Shown here piece after piece: positions 3,007-53,797 of a DNA stretch of 64,000 nt (position 1 is its first letter; each line of letters begins with the position of its first letter). Source of the DNA: a virus. The notes below the pieces were generated by a model. That model saw only the letters and a list, made by a program, of their open reading frames with translations, made no database searches and had not been told where the DNA came from. The stretch covers positions 32,001 through 96,000 of the IMG/VR virus record IMGVR_UViG_3300036770_001342; one strand, given 5' to 3'. The position numbers and the translations under genes were made by a program.

Positions 3007-3770
3007 AAAAAACTCTCTAAGTAAGTAGCCCAAGCATCATGCCCTTCTTCAAAATAATGGGAGTTGGGACCTTTTTTGTAATTGTCTTTCAAAAATTCGT
3101 GCATACCTATAGGTATAAAATTTGTTCTATCAAGTAAATTTGAATATTTGGTAGGATTTTCTAAATTTAATTGCGCATCAATCATTTTGCCGTAAGTTAG
3201 AAAAAATTTGTATTTTACATTGAGATGCTTAAAAGTGTTTTGTAAGGTTAATATATTTCTGTATGATCTGTCCGCGTCTCCTATATCCGTAGAAAATCGT
3301 GTAAAGTAATATTCAACTTCATTATTTTCACCGGTAGGACAAAAATTTACATATCTATTATATTCATTTTTATAGAATTCATTACGATTTGGTGATGTTA
3401 TGCCAATTATAAATTGATATTTAAAAGGGTATCTACTAATTTGATCATAATTTTCATCAATAAATTCAAGCGTGGTTCTTGTAATTTTATCGTTACTGCC
3501 GCCGTTTGACCCTAAATTTAACACGGTCAAAGCATTTAATTTTTCACCTAATACTCCACCAAAAAAGTAACGCTTTCTATAATTTTCGCACACGATTCTA
3601 TCGTGGTCAGTTAACGTTATTTCTTTCGTCTGATATGGTTCCCCAAATAAAAACATCATAAAATTTTTATCTGTTAATAGCGACTTATATTGGTCGGGTA
3701 CCAATTCTTCGCCGTATACATTACTATCGCCGTTAAGAATTAAGTTGAAGCGCGGCGTTTGATTTTCCAT
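3003..3770 (-). CDS. SGNH/GDSL-like hydrolase or acyltransferase
   Basis: NGDSN, GGSNDKI.R, C-terminal SHYFEEGH..WA; paralog of its two neighbours. Confidence 0.6.
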   Translation of the reverse strand: MENQTPRFNLILNGDSNVYGEELVPDQYKSLLTDKNFMMFLFGEPYQTKEITLTDHDRIVCENYRKRYFFGGVLGEKLNALTVLNLGSNGGSNDKITRTTLEFIDENYDQISRYPFKYQFIIGITSPNRNEFYKNEYNRYVNFCPTGENNEVEYYFTRFSTDIGDADRSYRNILTLQNTFKHLNVKYKFFLTYGKMIDAQLNLENPTKYSNLLDRTNFIPIGMHEFLKDNYKKGPNSHYFEEGHDAWATYLESFL

Positions 3771-51767: not shown

Positions 51768-52334
51768 ATGCCTAGTCCACAAAAACAAAAAGGTTCGAGT
51801 TGGGAGCGTGAGGTAGCACGATACCTCAGTGAAATTTATCAAGAAAGTTTTATACGTGCTCCAGGAAGTGGAGCATATGTAGGCGGTAAAAATAAAGTGC
51901 GTACTCAAATTTTACATGAAGGGCAGATACGCAGTTTTAAGGGAGACATTGTTCCAGGACAAAATTTTCCAAAATTTAACGCAGAGTGTAAAAGTTATGC
52001 TGATTTTCCTTTTCATTTAGTACTTACAGGACATTGTAAAGTATTAGATGGATGGTTAGATCAAATGATGGATGTTAGCGAACCGGGTGATTTAAATATT
52101 CTTTTCATGAAATTTAATCGCAAGGGTAGTTTCGTCTGTGTGCAAACTAACTTAACATGGATCACAGATCAATTTTTATATTATACAAGTGAAAAACACA
52201 AAGATTGGCTCATTATTGAGTTCGAACATTTTTTCAAACTCAACAAAGAATTACTTAAAACATATTGTTCAGGCTCATCAGACATAAAGTCTAACTCCCC
52301 ACAATTTAATACTTTAATTAATACAAACAATTAG
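51768..52334 (+). CDS. PD-(D/E)xK nuclease, Hjc-like Holliday junction resolvase
   Basis: KGSSWEREVA..L, R.PGSGA, GDIV, AECK. Confidence 0.7.
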   Translation: MPSPQKQKGSSWEREVARYLSEIYQESFIRAPGSGAYVGGKNKVRTQILHEGQIRSFKGDIVPGQNFPKFNAECKSYADFPFHLVLTGHCKVLDGWLDQMMDVSEPGDLNILFMKFNRKGSFVCVQTNLTWITDQFLYYTSEKHKDWLIIEFEHFFKLNKELLKTYCSGSSDIKSNSPQFNTLINTNN

Positions 52335-52337
52335 TTT

Positions 52338-52747
52338 GATAGGGGCAGCCCTATCCTCCTTGAGCAAGTCTAGTACACTAGTCACCTGCGGATCTGGAGT
52401 AAAGATATACATTTGTATATCGTATACCGAGTGGGCAATCGACAGGTTTGCGAACCCACAATGAGTACATATCTTATTTCGTTTTGCGGATATGTAACAT
52501 GCGTTATAGTAGATGATGAGTCTACAACTACAGTCCATAAACTTTACAGTATAACCGGTAGCGTATAACATCACAACAGGGTAGTTATACGGGAACAAAC
52601 GACATGGGTGAAGGGCAGGCAAGTCCAACCTTTGGTAGTGCTGAGATAGCACTACCATGGATTCAAAGCGGCAAGTAATCTAAATCCATATAAAAATTTA
52701 AATGACTGAGTGAGCGAAGCGAACGAAGTGTTGTCCGAAAGGACAAC
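52338..52747 (+). ncRNA. Candidate large structured non-coding RNA (class unknown; strand inferred)
   Basis: Only long intergenic gap in the window, tiled with helices: 52338-44/52349-55, 52404-10/52415-21, 52431-35/52455-59, 52466-73/52489-96, 52503-08/52550-55, 52562-69/52584-91, 52633-42/52648-57, and 52730-36/52741-47 (GAAA loop on the plus strand). Confidence 0.55.
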
Positions 52748-52748
52748 G

Positions 52749-52925
52749 TTAAAAATAAGGAAGATTAGTTTTCTTTACCGTTTCCATGTGATCTTCAATT
52801 ATTTCATTAATATATTTTCTTTCGGCATTGGACATATTTAAAATGTCTTGGTAACTTGCTCCACCACGAAGATGCCATGCCATGGATAATGCTGATTTTT
52901 TAATTCCCCCGATTTCTGCTTCCAT
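52749..52925 (-). CDS. gp51-like small hub/tail assembly protein (58 aa from ATG); possibly made as a -1 frameshift extension of the upstream gene
   Basis: Manual translation MEAEIGGIKKSALSMAWHLRGGASYQDILNMSNAERKYINEIIEDHMETVKKTNLPYF*; the I.NMS..ER motif and position after a gp26-like gene. Confidence 0.7.
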   Translation of the reverse strand: MEAEIGGIKKSALSMAWHLRGGASYQDILNMSNAERKYINEIIEDHMETVKKTNLPYF

Positions 52926-52972
52926 ATTTTTAACTAACTTCTCAACCTCATCGGGGGTTGCGTTTAGAAGTC

Positions 52973-53797
52973 TTAGCCGAAAAAATCGCTAGCGTTTAGT
53001 GTAAATGGTTGTTTATATTGATGTGAGCAAGCAGCACATTGTATATCCAAAGGTTGAAGTTCTGTGCTAGCCTTTAATCTTGTGTTATAATCTCTTATAG
53101 TTTCATACATATTGGCATCACAGTTGCGTAGAAAATCTAGGATGTAGTCTTTTTGATCTACTGCTCCGTTTGGAGTTTCTACATACTCAATTGATTTAGC
53201 AATTAATTGCATTGTTATGTCAGTAATACTTTTAATTGCTACTTGTGTAGCAGCAATTTTTTGCTTTTCATCTTCAATCTTTTCAATTTCAGCAAAACTT
53301 CTTTGAATATCAAATTGACCCAATGCTGCTTCATTCATTTCAGCATAGGTCATAGGTTTAAACTTAATTGATAGGTTATTAACATCTAGTTTTTGATCAT
53401 AATTGCCCATTTTTAATGTTTGTAATACATTAACTAGATTGACACCGTATGTGTTAGTTTCTTTACATGAAGGACAACTTGTAGTGACATCTAAAGTGTT
53501 GTCGCCACCGGCTGCTCTTATACCAATCAGAACTGCGTCTAAGTCACTTGTAGTTAATCTCCATGGATCTTTAATATTAGGCAAACAACTTTTAATGACT
53601 TCTGCTACAGCGTTACCGTTAAACAATGCGTCTGGTGTTCTTAACGTAATTTCATCGATTGCTGTCATAGGATAAACCGGCAGTTCGCCGTTTTCAGGCA
53701 TCGACAATACGTCAGGTGCATATCCCTTACCTTTGCTAGGCAATGTAATAAACACAGCGGGTCTACGAAAGTATTGTTTTAGCGGATTATTGTCCAT
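52973..53797 (-). CDS. gp26: Baseplate hub/tail assembly chaperone, T4 gp26-like
   Basis: LPSKG, VYPMTAIDE, D.DA.LI.IRAA, CPSC...CAAC, C-terminal SDFFG. Confidence 0.75.
   Translation of the reverse strand: MDNNPLKQYFRRPAVFITLPSKGKGYAPDVLSMPENGELPVYPMTAIDEITLRTPDALFNGNAVAEVIKSCLPNIKDPWRLTTSDLDAVLIGIRAAGGDNTLDVTTSCPSCKETNTYGVNLVNVLQTLKMGNYDQKLDVNNLSIKFKPMTYAEMNEAALGQFDIQRSFAEIEKIEDEKQKIAATQVAIKSITDITMQLIAKSIEYVETPNGAVDQKDYILDFLRNCDANMYETIRDYNTRLKASTELQPLDIQCAACSHQYKQPFTLNASDFFG

What the first reader, a model, noticed from the sequence alone, without database searches (positions are those of the whole stretch)
52338..52747. About 410 nt of densely base-paired non-coding sequence immediately after the Hjc-like nuclease
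Seen: in a window where genes otherwise abut, this gap begins 3 nt after the nuclease stop and holds at least eight helices. They include a 10-bp stem TGGTAGTGCT/AGCACTACCA, a nested pairing GTTATA/TATAAC enclosing GTAGA/TCTAC, and a terminal GAAA-tetraloop stem. The segment ACAGTATA...hairpin...GGGTGAAGGGCAGGCAAGTCC loosely recalls the ACAGA/UGAAA T-loop pair and P13 of the RNase P specificity domain, but I cannot find the RNase P catalytic CR-I/CR-V sequences. Inference: a large structured phage ncRNA co-transcribed with the gp47-gp46-resolvase operon. It could be an RNP partner or guide for the nuclease, a tRNA-binding RNA, or a structured replication origin.
Basis: partly seen in the sequence, partly recalled or inferred. 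Interest (0 to 1): 0.7.

Follow-up and report, generated by a model that had tools for sequence, protein, structure and literature searches.

The report
Large pseudoknotted RNA of giant phages
The gap after the phage nuclease gene encodes a real, roughly 340-base, intricately folded non-coding RNA that is conserved in over 190 contigs of uncultured giant phages, shares its core with the little-studied 'Polynucleobacter-1' RNA, and has no known function.

Summary
Window 52338-52676 (+ strand) is a single-copy gene for a structured non-coding RNA.

- **Conservation:** it sits in the same place, directly 3' of a PDDEXK_15 nuclease gene, in every one of more than 190 IMG/VR loci with enough flank. 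No reading frame is conserved.
- **Structure:** 100 proposed pairs are 90% paired across 50 sequences, against about 40% in slid controls. 65 pairs show compensatory changes. There are about a dozen helices, a four-way junction, two pseudoknots, a near-invariant 9-bp hairpin and many invariant unpaired bases.
- **Known families:** Rfam gives no match. RNase P, group I intron, tmRNA and omega-RNA readings all fail.
- **New link:** in more distant phages the same slot holds Rfam RF01718 (Polynucleobacter-1 RNA, function unknown). A covariance model of our junction domain hits directly 3' of that motif, and the loop pseudoknot is kept there too. Our RNA therefore belongs to a wider, modular RNA superfamily with a different 5' domain.
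- **Unexplained:** two identical 8-10-nt elements in a hairpin loop and the 3' tail change together, letter for letter.

Best guess (inferred): a stable, compactly folded trans-acting RNA that binds a two-fold partner. Its function is untested.

The parts
51768..52334 (+). Upstream gene: 188-aa PD-(D/E)XK nuclease (Pfam PDDEXK_15). It always lies directly 5' of the RNA.
   Evidence: Pfam PF24608, E 9e-23. It is adjacent in 103/103 loci.
52327..52338 (+). Conserved leader ACAAUUAGUUUG (family consensus AAUUNGNYKG). It overlaps the nuclease stop codon. It is either part of the RNA or a -10-like promoter element.
   Evidence: It is conserved at the nucleotide level whatever the position of the stop codon. 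No sigma-70 promoter scored above shuffles.
52338..52355 (+). H1: 7-bp hairpin.
   Evidence: All 7 pairs have compensatory changes. G-U wobbles indicate the + strand.
52356..52399 (+). Ha: invariant CUCC/GGAG helix (52356-59 with 52396-99), enclosing hairpin Hb (52364-52389). Includes the invariant CCUCCUUGAG and GGAUCUGGAGUAA.
   Evidence: Ha is 100% paired. In Hb, 4 of 5 pairs are compensatory, and one clade substitutes tandem G.A pairs.
52404..52421 (+). Hc: variable 7-bp hairpin.
   Evidence: 7/7 pairs are compensatory.
52425..52560 (+). Four-way-junction domain. It is closed by Hd (UACCG/CGGUA) and contains He (52431-59), Hf (52461-52500) and Hg (52503-08/52550-55). Hg encloses Hh (52509-25) and the conserved junction strand AACUACAG-UCC-AUAAACUUUACAG.
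   Evidence: pairs 91-100% canonical in 87 sequences. Covariance model R1 was built on this domain.
52479..52484 (+). PK1 5' strand: the Hf loop UUCGUU, which pairs with 52597-52602.
   Evidence: Mutual information. 6 pairs are 98.7% paired and 5 are compensatory. The pairing is kept in divergent relatives.
52534..52536 (+). PK2 5' strand: UCC (UCCC in most relatives), which pairs with GGA at 52592-52594.
   Evidence: Mutual-information pair 52534-52594 is 98% canonical. Two of the three pairs are nearly invariant.
52562..52591 (+). Hi: 8+2-bp hairpin between the junction domain and the pseudoknot 3' strands.
   Evidence: 9 of 10 pairs are compensatory.
52592..52602 (+). 3' strands of PK2 (52592-94) and PK1 (52597-52602), two bases apart.
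52606..52631 (+). Hk/Hl: irregular hairpin (GGGU/ACCU around GGGC/GUCC). The loop carries element A (52613-52623, GG-N-C-AGGCAAG).
   Evidence: Covariation seen by eye: GGGU/ACCU, GGAU/AUCU, GGCUG/CAGUU. The MAFFT alignment is poor in this stretch (helix 14).
52633..52657 (+). Hj: near-invariant 9-10-bp hairpin GGUAGUGCU-loop-AGCACUACC.
   Evidence: Invariant in nearly all rows. Rare compensatory variants: L046/L051 (U-A to A-U) and L209/L215.
52658..52676 (+). 3' tail AUGGAUUCAAAGCGGCAAG, carrying element B (52666-52676), which changes letter for letter with element A.
52677..52747 (.). A/U-rich spacer plus two conserved hairpins. T1 (52705-29) has tandem G.A pairs and a GAGCGAAGCGAA loop. 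T2 (52730-47) has a GAAA loop. They abut the stop codon of the converging gene. This is a terminator-like module whose strand is undecided.
   Evidence: T2 is 100% paired with 5 compensatory pairs. No U-tract terminator was scored.
52749..52925 (-). Converging 58-aa ORF. It is followed by a T4_baseplate-family gene at 52973-53797 (-).
   Evidence: Syntenic in 164/164 loci.

Best explanation
**Shown.** Window 52338-52676 (+) is a single-copy gene for a compactly folded non-coding RNA of about 340 nt, found in huge phages of 350-525 kb.
- It has about a dozen helices, a four-way junction and two pseudoknots that tie the junction domain to the strand after hairpin Hi.
- It has a sequence-invariant hairpin and many invariant unpaired bases.
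- Its junction-plus-pseudoknot core is shared with RNAs at the same position (3' of PDDEXK_15 nuclease genes) in more distant phages. One of those clades carries the Rfam Polynucleobacter-1 motif as its 5' domain. The family is therefore modular: a common core with clade-specific 5' and 3' domains.

**Inferred, my own estimate about 35-40% as worded.** The RNA is made from the early/middle replication-recombination transcription unit, or from a promoter at the end of the nuclease gene. It persists as a stable, globular, trans-acting RNA and works by binding a partner rather than by regulating a downstream gene. The invariant hairpin and the two identical, co-evolving elements (one in a hairpin loop, one in the 3' tail) would be two equivalent docking sites for a two-fold partner. 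That partner could be a dimeric protein or two copies of one nucleic-acid sequence. The dimeric PD-(D/E)XK junction nuclease encoded just upstream is the most obvious candidate, with the RNA four-way junction acting as a decoy or regulator. That step is speculation.

**On the confidence figure.** The 0.5 blends about 0.95 for 'a real structured RNA gene', about 0.7 for 'shares its core with Polynucleobacter-1-bearing RNAs' and about 0.35-0.4 for the trans-acting binding mechanism.
For: - **Conservation and covariation:**
- **Not coding:**
- **Strand:** G-U wobbles; UUCG and GNRA loops in variable hairpins.
- **Sequence conservation:** the RNA is 71% identical at the nucleotide level, as conserved as or more than neighbouring genes (60-69%), and 32% of its columns are invariant.
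- **Copy number:** one per genome, including two CheckV-complete genomes of 524,565 and 352,012 bp.
- **No downstream gene on the + strand:** the next genes converge.
- **Link to Polynucleobacter-1:**
  - RF01718 hits L227 at 90 bits and L236 at 59 bits, about 100 nt after the nuclease.
  - Model R1 hits L266 at E 2e-6.
  - With filters off, its best hits in L227, L271 and L269 are full-length, on the + strand and inside the syntenic gap; in L227 the hit lies directly 3' of the Rfam match.
  - The loop pseudoknot is kept there at 6-8 bp.
  - The same core is visible in the flanks of the published alignment.
- **Co-evolving identical elements:**
Against: - There is no transcript, end-mapping or binding data, and no promoter or terminator was detected.
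- Synteny cannot single out the nuclease as partner, because gp46 and the baseplate genes are equally linked.
- Nuclease homologues in PA5oct, SCTP-2, Phosso and many IMG/VR loci have no such RNA, so the nuclease does not need it.
- The nuclease in RNA-bearing phages has no conserved extra domain, only a variable tail.
- Homology to the Polynucleobacter-1-bearing RNAs rests on weak individual E-values (0.0085, 0.18, 1.1) plus position and pseudoknot conservation.
- The letter-for-letter co-variation of N rests on about 4 independent G/U events (sign test p 0.125) plus several other variants judged by eye.
Confidence: 0.5

Rival explanations
1. A new large ribozyme, for example one that cleaves or processes the 3' end of the early operon transcript, or that acts on another RNA. 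The pseudoknotted core would build an active site from the invariant junction bases.
For: The architecture is typical of catalytic RNAs: two pseudoknots, a multi-helix junction and 32% invariant columns concentrated in unpaired strands. Phage genomes are rich in self-cleaving ribozymes near nuclease genes; this is background knowledge, not tested here.
Against: No Rfam ribozyme family matches, even at E<=10. No cleavage-site signature can be named. The two co-evolving identical elements are not explained by this reading.
Confidence: 0.13
2. A cis-acting 3'-UTR element of the gp47-gp46-nuclease operon. It would stabilise the mRNA or block exonucleases. Alternatively it would insulate or terminate converging early and late transcription, with no trans function.
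For: It starts at the nuclease stop codon and lies exactly between converging transcription units. Conserved hairpins T1 and T2 abut the stop of the opposing gene. Weinberg 2010 tentatively scored the related Polynucleobacter-1 motif as cis-regulatory.
Against: A 340-nt double-pseudoknot fold with invariant single-stranded bases is far more than stabilisers or terminators need. No intrinsic terminator was scored. Many related phages manage the same gene junction with no gap at all.
Confidence: 0.17
3. A replication element. It would be either a structured primer RNA that forms an origin R-loop (as with ColE1 RNA II or T4 ori transcripts) or a folded single-stranded-DNA initiation signal.
For: It lies in the replication/recombination module. 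The related phage Phosso has RNase HI near its nuclease.
Against: Frequent G-U pairs, UUCG and GNRA loops and pseudoknots with invariant unpaired bases point to folded RNA rather than ssDNA. The core is kept while the A/U spacer varies freely in length and sequence. No origin evidence such as a skew shift or iterons was sought or seen.
Confidence: 0.08
4. An RNase P-like or other tRNA-binding RNA.
For: There is a four-way junction and a GGAUGAC/GGGUGAA-type strand that loosely recalls J11/12 of RNase P.
Against: No RNase P, T-box or tmRNA model matches at E<=10, and ARAGORN finds nothing. There is no CR-I/CR-V P4 pairing. There are no tRNA genes in the window.
Confidence: 0.03
5. Protein-coding: the antisense 114-aa ORF or a small + strand ORF.
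For: The window has an open 114-aa frame at 52314-52658 (-).
Against: The frame is broken in relatives 89-91% identical. No frame is conserved in 80 loci. There is no Pfam match. The substitution pattern is pairwise-compensatory, not codon-periodic.
Confidence: 0.01

Closest known systems
Polynucleobacter-1 RNA motif (Rfam RF01718; Weinberg et al. 2010, PMC2864571)
   Same: Both are orphan structured RNAs from freshwater metagenomes and a Polynucleobacter genome. The paper reports the motif as lying downstream of a phage-like gene. In IMG/VR loci L227 and L236 it sits about 100 nt after the same PDDEXK_15 nuclease family, on the same strand. The sequence immediately 3' of that motif matches our junction-domain model and keeps the loop pseudoknot. 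The same 3' flank is visible in the published alignment.
   Different: The 141-nt Rfam model itself has no counterpart in our RNA: there is no hit at E<=10. Our 5' domain (H1, Ha/Hb, Hc) and 3' domain (Hk/Hl, invariant Hj, tail) are different. The shared core was never modelled or described. The paper links the motif to a gene with 'possible homology' to P-SSM2 PSSM2_218, which is a SegE-type GIY-YIG nuclease, not PDDEXK_15.
GOLLD and ROOL (large ornate RNAs common in phages and prophages)
   Same: All are large, intricately folded, phage-borne RNAs with strong covariation and unknown function, found as stand-alone genes.
   Different: There is no sequence or model similarity. Our RNA is smaller, about 340 nt against about 600-800. 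No tRNA neighbourhood was seen. Multimeric cage formation is untested.
Bacterial RNase P RNA (specificity domain)
   Same: Similar size class, a helix-closed four-way junction, long-range pseudoknots and invariant junction strands.
   Different: There is no P4 with CR-I/CR-V and no model match. The pseudoknot topology also differs: both 3' strands follow hairpin Hi, and one 5' strand lies inside the junction domain.
Group I intron core
   Same: The strand order PK2-5' / Hg-3'+Hd-3' / Hi hairpin / PK2-3' mimics the P7-P3'-P8-P7' order. The setting is a phage.
   Different: It is not inserted in any gene and has no exons. It lacks a P4-P6 domain and a J8/7 strand. There is no Intron_gpI match.
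Nuclease-linked guide or scaffold RNAs (TnpB/IscB omega RNA, HEARO)
   Same: A structured RNA of 200-400 nt that begins at or overlaps the 3' end of a nuclease gene.
   Different: The nuclease is a small PD-(D/E)XK junction-resolvase type, not RuvC. There are no transposon ends and no variable guide segment. There is no HEARO match. Many homologous nucleases lack the RNA.

Membership tests
Polynucleobacter-1 RNA (RF01718) | Match to the Rfam covariance model at or above the gathering score of 37 bits. | tested here: not met
   There is no hit in the window at gathering, nor at E<=10 in 52100-53100, nor in 8 homologous loci. Positive controls: L227 scores 90 bits and L236 59 bits.
Polynucleobacter-1 RNA (RF01718) | Position downstream of a phage nuclease-type gene, on the same strand. 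| tested here: met
   In L227 and L236 the motif follows a PDDEXK_15 gene. Our RNA follows the same gene family.
Polynucleobacter-1 RNA (RF01718) | Shared homologous core 3' of the motif (junction domain plus loop pseudoknot). | tested here: inconclusive
   R1 hits: L266 at E 2e-6, L227 at 0.0085, L271 at 0.18, L269 at 1.1. All are syntenic and full-length. PK1 complementarity of 6-8 bp is kept. The case is persuasive taken together but weak hit by hit.
Bacterial RNase P RNA | P4 helix formed by CR-I (GAGGAAAGUCC) and CR-V (ACAGAAnnCGGCUUA), plus a model match. | tested here: not met
   Neither motif is in the sequence. No RNase P family matches at E<=10.
Group I intron | Insertion in a host gene with P1/P10 exon pairing, a P4-P6 domain, and a P3-P7 pseudoknot with J8/7. 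| tested here: not met
   It is intergenic, between a complete nuclease ORF and a converging gene. Only a P7-P3'-P8-like strand order is present. No Rfam match.
tmRNA | tRNA-like domain and tag reading frame. | tested here: not met
   ARAGORN finds none. Small frames in the region are not conserved.
Omega/HEARO-type nuclease guide RNA | Adjacent RuvC-type (TnpB/IscB) nuclease, transposon ends and a guide segment. | tested here: not met
   The adjacent nuclease is PDDEXK_15. No HEARO match. There is no variable terminal guide in the alignments.
Intrinsic terminator / simple 3'-UTR hairpins | GC-rich stem followed by a U-tract, with little else conserved. | tested here: not met
   0 terminator-like sites were found. 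The conserved structure spans about 340 nt and includes pseudoknots.
Structured ncRNA gene (generic) | Conserved secondary structure supported by compensatory changes, with no conserved ORF. | tested here: met
Structured ncRNA gene (generic) | A discrete transcript with defined ends. | not testable with these tools
   No expression data were available. No promoter or terminator consensus was found.

The most novel reading that the evidence does not exclude
The RNA is a functional partner of the phage recombination machinery. One version is a Holliday-junction-mimicking RNA that docks the dimeric PD-(D/E)XK resolvase through its two co-evolving identical elements and so times or restrains junction cleavage. 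The other is a new class of large ribozyme. Either would make the Polynucleobacter-1 superfamily the first structured RNA known to act in phage recombination-dependent replication.
Probability: 0.18. Interest if true: 0.9.

Novelty: new variant of a known kind. Interest (0 to 1): 0.72.

Why it matters
- **A new large RNA fold.** Large natural RNAs with complex tertiary folds are rare, and they have repeatedly revealed new biochemistry (RNase P, group I/II introns, riboswitches, GOLLD/ROOL cages). This one has very strong comparative support: more than 120 distinct sequences, two pseudoknots and a modular domain structure. It occurs as a single-copy gene in some of the largest known phage genomes.
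- **It extends a neglected Rfam family.** Polynucleobacter-1 has been an orphan Rfam motif since 2010. This work shows that the Rfam model covers only one clade-specific 5' domain of a larger RNA.
- **It gives testable handles.** These are the fixed neighbour gene, the invariant hairpin, and the two elements that change letter for letter, an unusual evolutionary signal that points to a two-fold binding partner.
- **It is a practical target.** The RNA is well suited to cryo-EM, SHAPE, self-cleavage assays and binding assays with the adjacent nuclease.

Tried and rejected
- **Rfam.** Scanned at gathering and at E<=10 on the window and on 8+12+20 related loci. Nothing was found for our clade. The RAGATH-33 hit on the minus strand (19.7 bits against a gathering score of 120) was dismissed.
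- **ARAGORN**: nothing.
- **GenBank phages by blastn**: no match.
- **GTDB genomes.** No match by hairpin pattern or by nuclease protein.
- **Coding.** Rejected. Small + strand frames differ in length and frame between clades.
- **RNase P, group I intron, tmRNA, SRP, riboswitch and omega-RNA readings.** Each was rejected on defining features (see the membership tests).
- **16S 3'-end mimicry.** The shared ACCUGCGG/GGAUC/CCUCCUU strings occur fully in one subgroup only, and CUCC is paired with GGAG, so this is probably coincidence.
- **A cis strand complementary to both co-evolving elements A and B.** A scan of -450..+260 found only UUGCY of the Hg 5' strand, which does not co-vary. The H1 loop UUGC is not consistent either.
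- **A trans target for A and B in the window**: only chance-level matches.
- **Target-site-duplication or mobile-insert explanation for A and B.** Rejected, because later concerted change would not follow from a single insertion.
- **Alternative helix.** CCAU before Hj could pair with AUGG after Hj. This is possible in one group but is not supported by covariation in the window's own group.
- **K-turn and 11-nt receptor motifs.** Not met.
- **Promoter and terminator scan**: nothing above shuffles.
- **Literature searches** by topic and by sequence string: no description of this RNA.
- **Linking Weinberg's 'GOS11034/PSSM2_218' gene to our nuclease.** This failed: PSSM2_218 is a GIY-YIG SegE-like protein.

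Full report
**Setting.** The window is part of a 106.9-kb IMG/VR virus record. Its gp46/gp47 recombination genes are about 51% identical to those of jumbo phages such as Pseudomonas PA5oct and Agrobacterium Atu_ph07. The gene before the gap (51768-52334, +) is a PD-(D/E)XK nuclease of Pfam family PDDEXK_15 (E 9e-23). The genes upstream are Metallophos (gp47-like) and SMC_N/AAA_23 (gp46-like). The genes after the gap converge on the minus strand: a 58-aa ORF and a T4_baseplate-family gene.

- The 416-nt gap folds with a z-score of -3.9.
- A search with the nuclease protein alone returned 80 IMG/VR loci at 66-92% protein identity. All of them carry a blastn-detectable homologue of the gap directly after the nuclease.
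In 103 of the 103 with enough upstream sequence, the nuclease lies 305-449 nt upstream on the same strand.
- The same pattern has no match in one genome each of 185,579 prokaryotic species.
- No reading frame is conserved. The antisense 114-aa ORF is broken in relatives about 90% identical and has no Pfam match.

**Structure.** RNAalifold on 50 sequences gave 62 pairs, 37 of them with compensatory changes. G-U wobbles occur only if the + strand is read.

Mutual information on 123 distinct sequences confirmed the nested helices and revealed two pseudoknots:
- PK1 joins the loop of hairpin Hf (52479-84) to 52597-52602.
- PK2 joins UCC (52534-36), in the conserved junction strand inside Hg, to GGA (52592-94).

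A hand-assembled structure of 100 pairs, pseudoknots included, was then tested.
- It is 90.4% paired across 50 sequences, against 33-42% when partners are slid by 1-3 columns.
- 65 pairs have changes on both sides.
- No shuffle in 500 reaches any of the five measures.
- PK1 is 98.7% paired, with 5 of 6 pairs compensatory.

The anatomy, 5' to 3', is as follows.
- Hairpin H1.
- The invariant CUCC/GGAG helix Ha, enclosing hairpin Hb.
- Hairpin Hc.
- A four-way junction closed by Hd (UACCG/CGGUA), with arms He, Hf and Hg (Hg encloses Hh).
- Hairpin Hi.
- The two pseudoknot 3' strands, two bases apart.
- The irregular hairpin Hk/Hl.
- The near-invariant 9-bp hairpin Hj.
- A conserved tail ending near 52676.
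- An A/U-rich spacer of variable length and two conserved hairpins (52705-47), which abut the stop of the converging gene.

At the nucleotide level the RNA is 71% identical between relatives. The nuclease is 69%, gp46 66% and the baseplate gene 60%. 32% of the RNA's columns are invariant, mostly unpaired ones. UUCG and GNRA loops and tandem G.A pairs appear in variable hairpins, which is typical of RNA.

**What it is not.**
- Rfam 15 has no match at gathering score in the window, nor in eight divergent homologous loci. Nothing credible appears at E<=10.
- ARAGORN finds no tRNA or tmRNA.
- RNase P is excluded.
- The strand order PK2-5', Hg-3'/Hd-3', Hi, PK2-3' recalls P7-P3'-P8-P7' of group I introns. 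However, the element is intergenic and has neither a P4-P6 domain nor a J8/7 strand.
- It is not a riboswitch or leader, because no + strand gene follows it.
- It is not an omega-type guide RNA. The nuclease is not RuvC-type, there is no guide segment, and many homologous nucleases lack the RNA.

**Link to a known orphan motif.** A second locus search started from a divergent nuclease (L180) and reached more distant phages.
- A sequence profile of our RNA finds it only where the nuclease is at least about 56% identical to L180.
- Beyond that, many phages have genes abutting the nuclease, but several keep an ORF-free gap of 400-700 nt.
- In two such clades, Rfam RF01718 (Polynucleobacter-1 RNA) matches about 100 nt after the nuclease on the same strand: L227 at 90 bits and L236 at 59 bits, against a gathering score of 37. 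The upstream gene there is again PDDEXK_15.

I built covariance model R1 from 87 sequences of our junction domain.
- R1 hits L266 at E 2e-6.
- With filters off, its best hits in L227 (E 0.0085), L271 (0.18) and L269 (1.1) are all full-length, on the + strand and inside the syntenic gap.
- In L227 the hit runs from 3242 to 3362, directly 3' of the Rfam match at 3088-3232.
- The Hf-loop pseudoknot is preserved in these divergent RNAs by different sequences: 8 bp in L227, 7 in L236 and L266, 6 in L271.
- Motifs such as UGCGUU and the Hg 3' strand -ACC(G/GC)- motif recur in them.

Weinberg et al. 2010 describe Polynucleobacter-1 as found in aquatic metagenomes and one Polynucleobacter genome. They place it downstream of a gene family with possible homology to P-SSM2 PSSM2_218 and note that its 3' half is not always detected. 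Their alignment flanks show the same core. PSSM2_218 turns out to be a SegE-type GIY-YIG nuclease, not PDDEXK_15, so I could not reconcile that remark with my loci.

I conclude that the window's RNA is not a member of RF01718. It is a relative within a larger, modular RNA superfamily. The common junction-plus-pseudoknot core has not been described, and the 5' and 3' domains differ between clades. This homology is persuasive in aggregate but rests on weak individual scores.

**An unexplained signal.** Element A (52613-23, in the stem and loop of Hl) and element B (52666-76, in the 3' tail) have almost the same sequence (N-C-[AU]-GGCAA-) and change together letter for letter.
- N is G/G in 62 of 87 sequences, U/U in 15, C/C in 2, A/A in 2 and mixed in 6.
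- GGCAA becomes AGCAA, GGUAA, AGUAA or GGCAU in both elements at once, and CC insertions occur in both.
- On a tree of the flanking proteins, N changes between G and U four times and B follows each time. On its own this gives p 0.125.
- I found no cis strand complementary to both elements and no target in the window.
- Possible readings are two equivalent sites for one trans partner, an alternative pairing to a strand not yet found, or an unusual parallel contact.

**Mechanism.** Shown: this is a conserved, single-copy, compactly folded RNA gene. R1 finds one copy per record in five records, including complete genomes of 524,565 and 352,012 bp. It lies at the 3' end of the replication-recombination operon.

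Inferred: it acts in trans as a folded RNA that binds a partner. The invariant hairpin and the twin elements mark the binding surface, and a dimeric protein such as the adjacent junction nuclease is the leading but unproven candidate.

Rivals are a new ribozyme, a cis-acting 3'-UTR or insulator element, and a replication primer or origin. Synteny cannot discriminate between them, because gp46, the nuclease, the RNA and the baseplate genes are always together. The nuclease also exists without the RNA in cultured relatives.

**Verdict.** This is a genuine and unusually well-supported structured RNA, and a new variant within the poorly known Polynucleobacter-1 kind. Its core is undescribed and its function unknown. 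Other first-stage notes of this scan flagged the same stretch (e1-5978071) and its 3' hairpins (e1-5978072).

Noticed in passing
L227:3088-3400; L236:3012-3330: The Rfam Polynucleobacter-1 model (141 nt) covers only the 5' part of a longer conserved RNA. A junction domain and a loop pseudoknot follow it directly. The Rfam family could be extended or split into domains.
   Followed up: partly
L275:26712-27149 (Prochlorococcus phage P-SSM2, PSSM2_218): The record annotates this gene as 'NAD synthetase', but it is a SegE-type GIY-YIG endonuclease (PF19835, E 6e-54). Weinberg 2010 cited it as a possible homologue of the gene upstream of Polynucleobacter-1 RNAs. It is unrelated to the PDDEXK_15 nuclease seen here.
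   Followed up: partly
window 52749-52990 (-): The 274-aa T4_baseplate (gp26-like) ORF and the 58-aa ORF are separated by a short gap. Other first-stage notes propose a -1 frameshift joining them. I did not test this.
   Followed up: no
window 52705-52747 and homologous positions in most loci: Two conserved hairpins with CGAAG/GCGAAGC-type loops and tandem G.A pairs lie at the convergent gene junction, with no U-tract. Similar hairpins close the gaps of the distant clades (L222, L227). They may be a phage-specific bidirectional terminator type.
   Followed up: partly
window 52270-52290 and about 60-90 nt upstream of H1 in relatives: The variable C-terminal tail of the nuclease carries a recurring 14-mer, CAGACACCA(C/A)GUCA, which encodes D-T-(T/K)-S. 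It is present twice in some loci (L180, L191, L045). It could be a peptide repeat or a nucleotide-level signal.
   Followed up: no
IMG/VR records behind L134 and L051: The relatives include CheckV-complete genomes of 524,565 and 352,012 bp, so this RNA belongs to a clade of very large ('huge') uncultured phages.
   Followed up: partly
L204:1487-2500 (Sinorhizobium phage Phosso): About 1 kb of unannotated sequence lies upstream of the Phosso nuclease homologue, next to an RNase HI gene. I did not examine it for RNA.
   Followed up: no
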